Source: the human T2T-CHM13v2.0 reference genome, Homo sapiens
Reading direction: 5' to 3' (one strand)
NCBI RefSeq assembly: GCF_009914755.1
Contig: NC_060933.1
Length of the DNA stretch: 64,000 nt
The translations under genes and the position numbers were made by a program. This document shows positions 7,464-9,289 of this stretch, piece after piece. The notes beneath the pieces are model-generated. The model searched no databases and was not told where the DNA came from. It worked only from the letters and a program-made list of their open reading frames with translations. Each line of letters begins with the position of its first letter. The stretch's first letter is position 1.

Positions 7464-7853
7464 ATTGGTCTTTTCTGTTTCTTTTAATGTCCGGGTTCCC
7501 TCCATCCTTACACTTTTTCTATTGAATAACCCAAGCCATTTGGCCTATAGAGATTCTCTCCAGTATGGATTTTGCTGATTGCACATTTGGGGAATAGTGC
7601 AATACGTTCCTCCTACCTCTCTTCCTGCAAGTTGACAACTGAATCCAGAGGCTTCATCAGACAAGTTCAGTCTGTTTGGCAGGATCTAGTGGGTGATCTG
7701 TTCTTTCATCAGATGGCACTTAATGTCTGGTTTCTGTTCCTTATCATTAGCAACAACATTTGATGCTTAGTACCTAGATTCATTAATTTATAGGTGGCTT
7801 GTAATAGGAAATTCTAATACTGTTATTTAATTTTCATTAGCTGAAATAATTTT

Positions 7854-8156
7854 TTGTTGTTTTTTTTTTTTTTGAGACAGAGTCTCGCTCTGTCACCCAG
7901 GCCGGAGTGCAGTGGCGCAATCTCGGCTCACTGCAAGCTCCGCCTCCCGGGTTCACACCATTCTCCTGCCTCAGTCTCCTGAGTAACTGGGACTACAGGC
8001 GCCTGCCACCAAGCCCAGCTAATTTTTCTGTATTTTTAGTAGAGACAGGGGTTTCACCATGTTAGCCAGGATGGTCTCGATCTCCTGACCTCGTGATCCA
8101 CCCACCTCAGCCTCCCAAAGTGCTGGGATTACAGGCGTGAGCCACCGTACCTGGCC
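7854..8156 (-). mobile_element. AluY-like, fused to the tRNA 3' trailer
   Basis: GCAAGCTCCGCCTCCCGGGTTCACACCATT diagnostic positions. Confidence 0.9.
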
Positions 8157-8169
8157 AAACATTATTAGC

Positions 8170-8241
8170 CTCCCCGTTGGGGAATCGAACCCCGGTCTCC
8201 CGCGTGACAGGCAGGGATACTCACCACCATACTAACGAGGA
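8170..8241 (-). tRNA. tRNA-Asp(GTC) copy, 3 substitutions vs the major isodecoder; likely retroposed or weakly active
   Basis: Minus strand TCCTCGTTAGTATGGTGGTGAGTATCCCTGCCTGTCACGCGGGAGACCGGGGTTCGATTCCCCAACGGGGAG, 72 nt, anticodon GTC, intact B box. Confidence 0.93.
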
Positions 8242-8246
8242 GCGCC

Positions 8247-9289
8247 TTTTTTTCTTTTTTTTTTTTTTTTTCTTTTTTGAGATGGAATCTCACTCTGTCA
8301 CCCAGGCTGGAGTGCAGTGGTGCAATCTCGGCTCACTGCAACCTCTGCCTCCCGGGTTCAAGCAATTCTCCTGCCTCAGCCTCCCAGGTAGCTGGGACTA
8401 CAGGTGCATGCCACCGTGCCCAGCTAATTTTTTGTTTTGTTTTGTTTTTGTATTTTTTTTTAAGTAGAGATGGGGTTTCACCGTGTTAGCCAGGATGATC
8501 TCAATCTCCTTACCTTGTGATCTGCCCACCTCGGCCTCCCAAAGTGCTGAGATTACAGGCATGAGCCACCATGCCTGGCCCAGCTGAGATAATTTTATAA
8601 AGAGAAACGTTTACTCATCTATTATTTGGTTTTTGCTGTTGTTGTTTTGTTTCTTGTTTTTTTGAGATGAAGTCTCACTCTGTTGCCCAGGCTGGAGTGC
8701 AATGGCACAATTTTGGCTCACTGCAACTTCCGCCTCCCAGGTTCAAGCAATTCTCCTGCCTCAGCCTCCTGGGTAGCTGGGACTACAGGTGCATGCCACC
8801 ATGCCCAGCTTATTTTTTGTATTTTTAGTAGAGACAGGGTTTCAGCGTGTTAGCCAGGATGGTCTCAATCTCCTGACCTCGTGATCTACCCACCTCGGCC
8901 TCCCAAAGTGCTGAGATTACAGGTGTGAGCCACCGTGCCCAGCCTAGCTGAAATAATTTTATAAAGAGAAACTTTTACTCATCTATTCTTTGGTTTTTGC
9001 TGTTGTTGGTTTTTTTTGTTTTTGTTTTTTTGAGACGAAGTCTCACTCCGTTGCCCAGGCTGGAGTGCAATGGCACAATCTTGGCTCACTGCAACCTCCA
9101 CCTCCCGGGTTCAAGCGATTCTCTTGCCTCAGCCTCCCAAGGAGCTGGGATCACAGGTGCGCACCATCATGCCTGGCTAATTTTTTGTATACAGATGGGA
9201 TTTCACCATGTTGGTCAGGCTGGTCTTGAACTCCTGACCTCATGATCAGCCCAAAGTGCTGAGATTACAGGCATAAGCTGCGCCCAGCC
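8247..9289 (-). mobile_element. Three tandem Alus (8247-8580, 8626-8944, 8990-9289) with a duplicated spacer
   Basis: Alu consensus; ~60-bp spacer repeated at 8581 and 8945. Confidence 0.9.

What the first reader, a model, noticed from the sequence alone, without database searches (positions are those of the whole stretch)
7838..8596. Alu-(pre-tRNA-Asp)-Alu chimeric retro-cassette inside a single target-site duplication
Seen, reading the minus strand: Alu A, its A tail, GGCGC, a 72-nt tRNA-Asp(GTC), GCTAATAATGTTT, then immediately the GGCC start of an AluY-like element and its A tail. The tRNA has no CCA, no own poly(A), no T4+ terminator and no unique flanking DNA beyond 5 nt upstream and 13 nt downstream. 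The cassette is bounded by TAGCTGAAATAATTTT at 7838-7853, an exact copy at 8945-8960 and a 2-mismatch copy at 8581-8596, followed by an L1-EN TTTT/A site. Known: L1 machinery makes U6-L1 and other Pol III chimeras by template switching or RNA ligation at oligo-U 3' ends. Inference: an unprocessed pre-tRNA (leader plus trailer ending in UUU) was joined to Alu RNA and retroposed, either as a tripartite molecule or as a tRNA-AluY chimera landing in Alu A's tail. The locus would then be a fossil of pre-tRNA capture and, if transcribed, a natural tRNA-headed Alu read-through RNA, structurally like a nascent composite SINE.
Basis: partly seen in the sequence, partly recalled or inferred. Interest (0 to 1): 0.8.

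Follow-up and report, generated by a model that had tools for sequence, protein, structure and literature searches.

The report
Pre-tRNA-Asp fused to AluY retrocopy
An unprocessed aspartate tRNA precursor was copied head-to-tail with an Alu element and pasted into the tail of an older Alu, and a dozen similar tRNA-Alu fusions lie elsewhere in the same human genome.

Summary
On the minus strand the order is: Alu A, its A-tail, GGCGC, a 72-nt tRNA-Asp(GTC), GCTAATAATGTTT, a full-length AluY and its A-tail. The 16-bp repeat is present at all three stated places.

The best reading is a two-part retrocopy. A nascent pre-tRNA-Asp (5-nt leader, trailer ending UUU) was joined to the first base of a full Alu RNA. 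L1 then inserted the pair as one unit into the A-tail of the older Alu A.

- The outer 16-bp duplication belongs to Alu A.
- The third copy of the repeat comes from an Alu-Alu unequal crossover, which made a hybrid Alu B.
- The best present-day source candidate is a chr12 tRNA-Asp gene: 13 of 18 flank bases match, other genes match at most 9 of 18.

The main new result is that the architecture recurs. Limited pattern searches of the same genome found 12 more tRNA + short trailer + full sense Alu loci (Asp x3, Tyr x2 with introns, Lys, Cys, Ile, Arg, Leu, Glu, Gln). Ten of them carry a target-site duplication around the whole unit.

I found no description of pre-tRNA/Alu chimeras in the searchable literature. 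U6/Alu, tRNA/LINE-1 and tailless pre-tRNA retrocopies are known. Verdict: a real feature and a new variant of a known kind.

The parts
7838..7853 (-). 3' copy of the 16-bp target-site duplication (AAAATTATTTCAGCTA on the minus strand), attributed to Alu A
7854..7873 (-). A-rich tail after AluY (A14 CAACAAAAA). The distal part may be the remnant of Alu A's own tail.
7874..8156 (-). Full-length AluY body, starting at Alu position 1 (GGCCAGG). Non-CpG divergence 6/244; 10/21 CpG sites kept.
8157..8169 (-). 13-nt pre-tRNA 3' trailer GCTAATAATGTTT, ending in T3 directly at the Alu start
8170..8241 (-). 72-nt tRNA-Asp(GTC) copy, with 3 differences from the common gene sequence, including position 14 A>G
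8242..8246 (-). 5-nt pre-tRNA 5' leader GGCGC (chr12 gene has GGCGG)
8247..8278 (-). A-tail of Alu A (32 nt, two G interruptions); inferred insertion target of the tRNA-AluY unit
8279..8580 (-). Alu A, an older subfamily: it shares 3 left-arm diagnostic states with Y but lacks 3 Y-specific ones. Non-CpG divergence 14/248; 4/19 CpG sites kept.
8581..8596 (-). 5' copy of the duplication next to Alu A (2 mismatches)
8597..8944 (-). Tandem-duplicated unit: hybrid Alu B (5' about 235 nt like Alu A; 3' part, tail and spacer like Alu C)
8945..8960 (-). Exact copy of the 16-mer in front of Alu B (duplicate of the 5' copy, made by the crossover)
8961..9289 (-). Alu C with tail and spacer; the upstream crossover partner

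Best explanation
A nascent, unprocessed pre-tRNA-Asp still carried its 5-nt leader and a 13-nt trailer ending in UUU. It became the second template in an L1-driven reverse transcription that had started on the poly(A) of an AluY RNA. When the reverse transcriptase reached the first base of the Alu RNA, it jumped onto the 3' oligo(U) end of the pre-tRNA and copied it to its transcription start.

The resulting two-part cDNA (leader-tRNA-trailer-AluY-poly(A)) was integrated as one unit into the A-tail of an older Alu (Alu A). The 16-bp duplication at 8581-8596 and 7838-7853 is therefore Alu A's own. The chimera's own duplication is hidden in poly(A).

A separate unequal crossover between Alu A and the upstream Alu C duplicated about 365 bp and made the third repeat copy.

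Shown: the anatomy, the enclosing duplication, recurrence of the same architecture elsewhere, and homology to source genes limited to the transcribed stretch. Inferred: template jump rather than RNA ligation, the order of events, and an age of roughly 20-25 million years from 2.5% non-CpG divergence.
For: 1. Anatomy and repeat statistics.

2. A whole-genome search with leader + tRNA + trailer gives one flank-extending match. A chr12 tRNA-Asp gene aligns from query position 25 to 114, which is exactly leader through trailer. In an ungapped flank comparison it matches 13/18, other tRNA-Asp genes match at most 9/18, and 30 of 20000 shuffles reach 13. That gene has no Alu after its T5 terminator.

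3. Twelve further loci show tRNA + 8-28 nt trailer + full sense Alu.
- tRNA identity is supported by ARAGORN or Rfam in 11 of the 12.
- A duplication encloses the whole unit in 10 of the 12. Six are strong in an unconstrained test (0-9 of 200 shuffles). Two were tested and weak there (24 and 42 of 200). In one the test picked an unrelated 7-mer. One was read by eye only.
- Both tRNA-Tyr copies keep their intron.
- Leaders are 2-7 nt.

4. For the young chr4 tRNA-Cys::AluY copy, homology to a chr17 gene (98%) starts at -5 and stops inside the trailer.

5. Other loci hit by the same patterns were ARAGORN-negative: 42 of 43 (the positive one is the Leu locus again) and 4 more. A plain Alu (L062) has its duplication directly around the Alu alone.

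6. Alu A is older than AluY: 14/248 against 6/244 non-CpG changes, and 4/19 against 10/21 CpG sites kept.
Against: - The chimera has no duplication of its own that can be read, because it sits in poly(A). Co-insertion at this locus therefore rests on analogy and on the lack of an AluY-only duplication.
- The age contrast is not significant on its own: Fisher p = 0.11 and 0.10. With the tRNA pooled with AluY it is 0.07 and 0.035.
- The source match is only 13/18. A second chr12 gene (L004) scores higher on a gapped alignment of the trailer alone.
- In the chr4 case the junction is not at the source gene's T4 terminator. The source reads ...GGAGTTACCTCGTTTT and the copy reads ...GGAGTTTT|GCC. 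So 'the trailer ends at the terminator' is not universal.
- Two of the 12 sibling loci (chr3 Asp, chr17 Ile) have no resolvable duplication.
- No orthologous primate sequence was available.
Confidence: 0.75

Rival explanations
1. Three-part single event. Reverse transcription began on AluY RNA, jumped to the pre-tRNA, then jumped again to the poly(A) of an Alu A RNA. The 16-bp duplication would then flank one tripartite retrocopy.
For: One clean 16-bp duplication encloses all three parts, and no inner duplication is visible. Double template jumps are reported: tripartite B2-U6-L1 elements in mouse and a fungal case (passages of PMC2104539).
Against: Alu A lacks the three Y-specific states and is about 2.2 times more diverged than AluY, with fewer CpG sites kept. 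None of the 12 sibling loci needs a three-part reading: 10 are enclosed as two-part units, and chr3 Asp and chr17 Ile are unresolved. A-tails are ideal L1 targets, so a hidden poly(A) duplication is expected for a nested insertion.
Confidence: 0.12
2. Read-through or 5' transduction. A genomic tRNA-Asp gene that already had an AluY 13 bp downstream was transcribed by Pol III through its weak T3 stop, and the long transcript was retroposed.
For: T3 is a poor terminator, and the copy here has no T4 for 706 nt.
Against: No second locus in this genome shares this trailer-Alu junction. The candidate source genes on chr12, chr1 and chr17 have T4-T5 terminators and no Alu behind them. The same exact abutment would have to have arisen independently at genes of at least 10 isotypes.
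Confidence: 0.05
3. Independent events. Either a tailless pre-tRNA retropseudogene or an old tRNA gene was later flanked by an unrelated AluY insertion.
For: Pre-tRNA-derived tailless retropseudogenes are reported (Schmitz 2004, seen only as cited in passages of PMC4476161 and PMC5322556).
Against: AluY has no duplication of its own: GCTAATAATGTTT is not repeated after its tail. The tRNA lies inside Alu A's duplication, so it cannot predate Alu A. Exact T-run-to-Alu-base-1 junctions at 13 loci are not expected from random Alu landing. By my own estimate, not a tool result, about 0.1 such junctions would be expected for roughly 600 tRNA genes.
Confidence: 0.05

Closest known systems
U6/L1 and U6/Alu chimeric retrogenes (Buzdin 2002/2003; Garcia-Perez 2007; Doucet 2015)
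   Same: A Pol III small RNA ending in oligo(U) is fused in sense to the 5' side of a retroelement copy. The unit carries poly(A) at the 3' end, has one duplication around the whole, and uses L1 target sites. U6/Alu examples are mentioned as rare in passages of PMC4476161.
   Different: The 5' partner here is a pre-tRNA with leader, trailer and, in the Tyr copies, an intron. The Alu partner is full length in every case, whereas L1 partners are 5'-truncated at varied points (recalled). Buzdin 2003 (PMC169886) was not held, so I could not check whether it lists tRNA partners.
tRNA/LINE-1 chimeric insertions (Law and Burns 2026, PMC13174262; sections 11 and 17 read)
   Same: tRNA sequence is co-inserted with a retrotransposon within one duplication. 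The paper reports this as a newly found chimera type (n = 21).
   Different: Those are mostly half-length tRNA pieces in antisense to L1, attributed to twin priming. Here whole precursors lie in sense, joined to Alu base 1. That study screened only sequences upstream of LINE-1.
Tailless pre-tRNA retropseudogenes (Schmitz et al. 2004)
   Same: The template is an unprocessed nuclear pre-tRNA mobilised by L1.
   Different: Those stand alone without poly(A) and have their own duplication. Here the poly(A) and priming are supplied by the attached Alu. The paper was not held and is known only from citations.
Composite tRNA-plus-Alu SINE of Galago (Daniels and Deininger 1985; Roos 2004), as cited in a passage of PMC4864456
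   Same: A tRNA-derived head is joined to Alu-derived sequence, and the head carries an internal Pol III promoter.
   Different: That one is an amplified family. The element here is single-copy. The siblings have different trailers, different introns and, where typed, Alu partners from three subfamily groups, so they arose independently.

Membership tests
L1-mediated chimeric retrocopy (template-switch type) | Copies of two different RNAs fused head-to-tail in the same orientation, with the 3' one ending in poly(A) | tested here: met
   leader-tRNA-trailer directly abuts Alu base 1, and an A-tail follows at 7873-7854.
L1-mediated chimeric retrocopy (template-switch type) | One target-site duplication enclosing the whole chimera | tested here: inconclusive
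   At this locus the unit lies in poly(A), so its own duplication cannot be read. The enclosing 16-mer is best assigned to Alu A. The feature is met at 10 of 12 sibling loci.
L1-mediated chimeric retrocopy (template-switch type) | Homology to the source gene confined to the transcribed region | tested here: met
   The BLAST match to the chr12 gene spans exactly leader to trailer, with 13/18 flank bases and 30 of 20000 shuffles reaching that. The result is clean for the sibling chr4 Cys copy.
L1-mediated chimeric retrocopy (template-switch type) | L1 endonuclease-type target (TT/AAAA) | tested here: met
   The inferred target is an A-tail. The outer site reads TTTT/AT on the + strand. Sibling duplications start with A-runs.
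Tailless pre-tRNA retropseudogene | Stand-alone tRNA-derived copy with its own duplication and no poly(A) | tested here: not met
   It is followed without a gap by a full Alu plus poly(A), and no duplication surrounds the tRNA alone.
Functional tRNA-Asp gene | tRNA model match, invariant nucleotides intact, T4 or longer terminator | tested here: not met
   The model match is present. However, position 14 is G instead of the A seen in 17 of the 18 other Asp-type copies compared; the 18th, chr7, has a deletion there. Only T3 follows the trailer, and the next TTTT is 706 nt away. The RefSeq table supplied with the task lists no tRNA gene in the window.
Composite tRNA-7SL SINE family | Multiple genomic copies sharing the same junction (amplification) | tested here: not met
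   Only one locus carries this trailer-Alu junction. The siblings differ in trailer sequence; the Alu subfamily group was typed for 7 of the 12.

The most novel reading that the evidence does not exclude
Pre-tRNA::Alu chimeras are an undescribed, recurrent class of L1-made retrocopies: at least 13 loci and 10 isotypes in one human genome, spanning AluS to young AluY partners. They would arise in the nucleus when the L1 reverse transcriptase finishes an Alu RNA and jumps end-to-end onto the 3' oligo(U) of a nascent pre-tRNA. Each copy then preserves a Pol III start site, a termination point and, in the Tyr copies, an unspliced intron. The class would also be a route by which promoter-bearing tRNA copies disperse (the chr4 tRNA-Cys copy is intact and has a T4) and the first step towards composite tRNA-Alu SINEs.
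Probability: 0.45. Interest if true: 0.7.

Novelty: new variant of a known kind. Interest (0 to 1): 0.6.

Why it matters
- **Timing of capture.** The locus, with its siblings, is direct sequence evidence that L1 can capture tRNA precursors before any processing: leader, trailer and intron are all present. That places the template switch in the nucleus at the integration site.
- **Nature of the jump.** Every Alu partner is full length. This points to an end-to-end jump from a completed template onto a U-ended acceptor. The same logic is proposed for U6 chimeras, but here the partner's ends make RNA ligation unlikely.
- **Annotation.** Some dispersed human 'tRNA genes' may be retrocopies that travelled with an Alu.
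- **SINE origins.** It shows how a tRNA-headed composite SINE could start.

Tried and rejected
I used a MAFFT alignment instead.
- Schmitz 2004 (PMC524414) and Buzdin 2003 (PMC169886) are not held. Whether either lists tRNA-Alu fusions is therefore unchecked.
- Literature searches found no description of pre-tRNA/Alu chimeras:
  - 'tRNA-Alu': 0 papers.
  - Alu + pre-tRNA + chimera + retrotransposition + template switching: 1 paper, on U6.
  - tRNA pseudogene + Alu + chimeric + LINE-1: 1 unrelated paper.
  - One search gave nothing relevant.
  - The study of de novo Alu inserts (PMC3415434) does not contain the word tRNA.
- Hierarchical clustering of 111 Alus did not split into subfamilies. I grouped them by six diagnostic columns instead.
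- Folding the 90-nt precursor was uninformative: z = -1.03.
- The unconstrained duplication test was weak for chr2 Tyr (24/200) and chr11 Leu (42/200). For chr6 Gln it picked an unrelated 7-mer, and for chr3 Asp and chr17 Ile it found nothing usable. The chr7 junction was missed by my regex and was read by eye.
- chr2:203846245 (tRNA-Gly-like, Rfam 36.9 bits) was left out as ambiguous, because the junction is not clean and the duplication is unclear.
- chr12:12842818 was rejected as a plain Alu insertion.
- Antisense control: of 46 hits, I recognise only 2 tRNA 3' ends by eye (a Cys and a Pro).
- One search listed only about 100 of 554 hits, so the count of 13 is a lower bound.
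Full report
**1. Observation**

- Alu A body, 8580-8279
- Alu A's 32-nt A-tail, 8278-8247
- GGCGC, 8246-8242
- a 72-nt tRNA, 8241-8170
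- GCTAATAATGTTT, 8169-8157
- an Alu starting at its first base, 8156-7874
- that Alu's tail, 7873-7854
- AAAATTATTTCAGCTA, 7853-7838

ARAGORN calls tRNA-Asp(gtc). The Rfam tRNA model scores 45 bits against a gathering score of 29. The 16-mer occurs three times in the window, twice exact and once with two mismatches; none of 100 shuffles reaches three matches. No CCA and no T4 follow the tRNA. The next TTTT on that strand is 706 nt downstream.

**2. Surroundings and the third repeat copy**

Upstream on the same strand lie Alu B (8944-8664), Alu C (about 9289-9032) and Alu D. In a four-way alignment, Alu B agrees with Alu A over its first ~235 nt wherever A and C differ. It agrees with Alu C over its 3' part, tail and the 60-nt spacer.

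Alu B is therefore the hybrid product of an unequal crossover between Alu A and Alu C. That crossover duplicated about 365 bp, including the 16-mer in front of Alu A. This explains why there are three copies. Only two of them, one in front of Alu A (or B) and one at 7838-7853, mark an insertion.

**3. Whose duplication is it?**

I extracted 111 near-full-length Alus from the window and the fetched loci and aligned them. The window's downstream Alu carries three states seen in only 13-20% of copies. Alu A lacks all three, although it shares three left-arm states with it. By recalled subfamily names this is AluY against an AluSc-like element.

Measured against group consensuses built from these data:

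| Element | Non-CpG changes | CpG sites kept |
|---|---|---|
| AluY | 6/244 | 10/21 |
| Alu A | 14/248 | 4/19 |

The contrast goes the way a nested insertion predicts, but it is statistically modest. Fisher p is 0.11 and 0.10; with the tRNA pooled with AluY it is 0.07 and 0.035. I therefore assign the 16-bp duplication to Alu A and read the tRNA-AluY unit as a later insertion into Alu A's tail. Its own duplication would be poly(A) and cannot be seen.

**4. Source gene**

The whole genome that holds the window can be searched. With leader + tRNA + trailer + Alu start as query, 34 matches were returned. All but four cover little more than the tRNA body.

The exceptions are the window locus itself, two sibling chimeras described in section 5, and one chr12 gene. 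The chr12 match runs from query position 25 to 114, which is from the first leader base to the last trailer base.

In an ungapped comparison of the 5 + 13 flank bases, that gene (GGCGG ... GCCAAGTGTGTTTTT) matches 13/18. Other tRNA-Asp genes match at most 9/18. Thirty of 20000 shuffles reach 13 (alignment). The gene has a T5 terminator and no Alu behind it.

The match is imperfect. A second chr12 gene scores higher on a gapped alignment of the trailer alone. The assignment is therefore probable, not certain. High mutation rates in the flanks of active tRNA genes (recalled, Thornlow 2018) would explain the divergence.

**5. The architecture recurs**

The same BLAST search also returned a chr5 and a chr7 locus in which a tRNA-Asp copy and a 13-15-nt trailer ending TTT run straight into an Alu start. 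I then ran pattern searches for a B box, a gap, a T-run and the Alu 5' end:

| Search | Hits | tRNA-Alu junctions among them |
|---|---|---|
| strict | 3 (reversed-pattern control 0) | 3 |
| no T-run required | 26 | the same 3 |
| up to 2 mismatches | 554; about 100 listed, 31 with ≤1 mismatch | 8 of those 31 |
| shorter Alu anchor | 11 | 7 |
| Alu anchor further inside | 13 | 6, plus one ambiguous |
| shorter B box | 77 | 6; most of the rest are segmental-duplication copies of two unrelated junctions |

Including the window, this gives 13 distinct loci:
- Asp: chr9, chr5, chr7, chr3
- Tyr: chr2, chr8
- Lys-TTT: chr1
- Cys: chr4
- Ile: chr17, 5'-truncated
- Arg-like: chr17
- Leu-TAA: chr11
- Glu-like: chr1
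- Gln-TTG: chr6

tRNA identity is supported by ARAGORN in 10 loci and by the Rfam tRNA model above gathering score in two more. Only the truncated Ile piece rests on my reading alone. Isotype names for the chr8, chr17 and chr1-Glu copies are my reading from recalled tRNA sequences.

Other loci hit by the patterns served as negatives. Of the 43 scanned, 42 have no tRNA; the one positive is the Leu locus again. Four more were negative.

**6. Evidence that the siblings are single retrocopies**

In 10 of the 12 other loci, a duplication starting with an A-run sits immediately upstream of a 2-7-nt leader and immediately after the Alu's poly(A):

| Locus | Duplication match | Note |
|---|---|---|
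| chr1 Lys | 12/12 | |
| chr8 Tyr | 13/13 | |
| chr17 Arg | 10/10 | inside a host Alu's linker |
| chr5 Asp | 12/13 | inside a host Alu's left arm |
| chr4 Cys | 12/13 | |
| chr1 Glu | 12/13 | |
| chr2 Tyr | 10/11 | |
| chr11 Leu | 11/14 | |
| chr7 Asp | 10/12 | read by eye |
| chr6 Gln | 10/12 | read by eye |

I also ran an unconstrained local-match test that ignores position. Six loci are strong in it (0-9 of 200 shuffles). Two are weak (24 and 42 of 200). For chr6 it picked another 7-mer, and chr7 was not tested. chr3 Asp and chr17 Ile have no resolvable duplication.

A plain Alu caught by the same pattern (chr12:12842818) has its duplication directly around the Alu. This shows what an independent insertion looks like.

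Further features of the siblings:
- Both Tyr copies keep an intron (88-93 nt).
- The Ile copy, like the window's, follows the A-tail of an older Alu and is cut off in the D loop, as expected for an aborted cDNA.
- For the young chr4 Cys::AluY copy, a chr17 gene matches at 98% from exactly -5 to +14 of the trailer and no further.
- The chr5 Asp copy's leader and trailer (TGTCG, GCAGCAGTCCTTT) resemble those of the chr1 tRNA-Asp array (CGTCG, GCAGCCGTGCTTTTT). So at least two different Asp genes served as sources.
- Trailers and introns differ between siblings.
- Only 7 of the 12 partner Alus passed the full-length filter and were typed: six 'S' and one 'Sc' in my grouping; one of the six belongs to the excluded ambiguous Gly locus. 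The window's own is 'Y'.

There is no sign of secondary amplification.

**7. Mechanism**

What is shown: a unit made of a complete primary tRNA transcript and a complete Alu, ending in poly(A), was inserted at L1-type sites.

What I infer: L1 reverse transcription began on the Alu's poly(A), ran to Alu base 1, and continued on the 3' oligo(U) end of a nascent pre-tRNA.

Three points favour a template jump over RNA ligation:
- The Alu partner is always full length, starting at base 1 in 12 loci and at base 2 in chr4.
- A primary Alu RNA has a 5' triphosphate and a nascent pre-tRNA has a 3' hydroxyl. These are not the ends joined by RtcB. The end chemistry is recalled; RtcB ligation is named as a route for L1 chimeras in PMC13174262, section 17.
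- Leader, trailer and intron mark short-lived nuclear species.

One observation does not fit neatly. In the chr4 case the copy reads ...GGAGTTTT|GCC where the source reads ...GGAGTTACCTCGTTTT. There the acceptor end was either trimmed and U-tailed, or the jump used a short internal U-run.

**8. Rivals**

- A three-part single event remains possible, because nothing at this locus separates Alu A from the rest except age. I put it at 0.12.
- Read-through from a tRNA gene that already had an Alu behind it is unlikely. The candidate sources lack such an Alu, and no second copy of the junction exists.
- Independent adjacent insertions are unlikely. AluY has no duplication of its own, and the junction type recurs.
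- As a rough orientation control, the mirror pattern (B box, trailer, T-run, antisense Alu) gave 46 hits. I recognise only two tRNA 3' ends among them by eye, and these are unverified because no more genome letters could be fetched. The comparable sense pattern gave 7 of 11.

**9. Function today**

The tRNA copy differs from the common Asp gene at three positions. One is position 14, which is A in 17 of the 18 other Asp-type copies compared; the chr7 copy has a deletion there. The copy also lacks a T4, so I read it as a pseudogene. If its B box still recruits Pol III, the transcript would run into AluY. This is untested.

**10. Comparison with print**

- Law and Burns 2026 (sections 11 and 17 read) report tRNA/LINE-1 chimeras as new. 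Those are mostly half tRNAs in antisense, and the study screened only upstream of LINE-1.
- Doucet 2015 (passages) cites U6/Alu chimeras as rare and pre-tRNA retropseudogenes from Schmitz 2004.
- Gogvadze 2007 (passages) documents tripartite chimeras.
- Konkel 2016 (passage) cites the Galago composite of an Alu and a tRNA-derived element.
- Five searches found no paper describing pre-tRNA/Alu chimeras.
- The two most relevant older papers were not held, and supplements were not consulted. Prior description therefore cannot be excluded.

**11. Verdict**

It is a new variant of a known kind of L1-made chimera. The finding gains interest because it is one of at least 13 such loci.

Noticed in passing
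window 8581-9289 (minus strand): An Alu-Alu unequal crossover produced a tandem duplication of about 365 bp. Alu B is a hybrid: its 5' ~235 nt is Alu A-like, and its 3' part, tail and 60-nt spacer are Alu C-like.
   Followed up: yes
window 9289-9617 (minus strand): A 5'-truncated Y-type Alu (Alu D) sits directly against the 5' end of Alu C. It has its own duplication, AAAAACTGGGGAAATAG / AAAAACCTGGGGAAATAG.
   Followed up: partly
L050 (G000:C4:126812874-126813009, minus strand): A young tRNA-Cys::AluY chimera. The tRNA body is 100% identical to a chr17 tRNA-Cys gene copy and a T4 follows the trailer, so it could be a live retro-duplicated tRNA gene. The junction does not coincide with the source gene's terminator.
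   Followed up: partly
L077/L087 (G000:C11:113572573-113572652, minus strand): The tRNA-Leu-TAA::Alu chimera has a 28-nt trailer that runs through a T5 run to a second T4. It looks like a record of Pol III read-through of the first terminator.
   Followed up: no
L047 (G000:C2:218731605) and L057 (G000:C8:66122943): Two independent tRNA-Tyr::Alu chimeras keep different introns, so unspliced precursors served as templates.
   Followed up: partly
L067 (G000:C17:8112224-8112277, minus strand): A tRNA-Ile-AAT piece cut off in the D loop follows the A-tail of an older Alu and runs via a 13-nt trailer into a second Alu. This is the same 'Alu-tail-tRNA-Alu' layout as in the window, but no duplication could be resolved.
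   Followed up: partly
G000:C1:160577895-160733103: The tRNA-Asp query matches 22 places spaced about 7.4 kb apart on chr1: 21 at 96% identity and one at 95%. This is a long tandem array of tRNA-bearing repeats, and its leader and trailer resemble those of the chr5 chimera.
   Followed up: no
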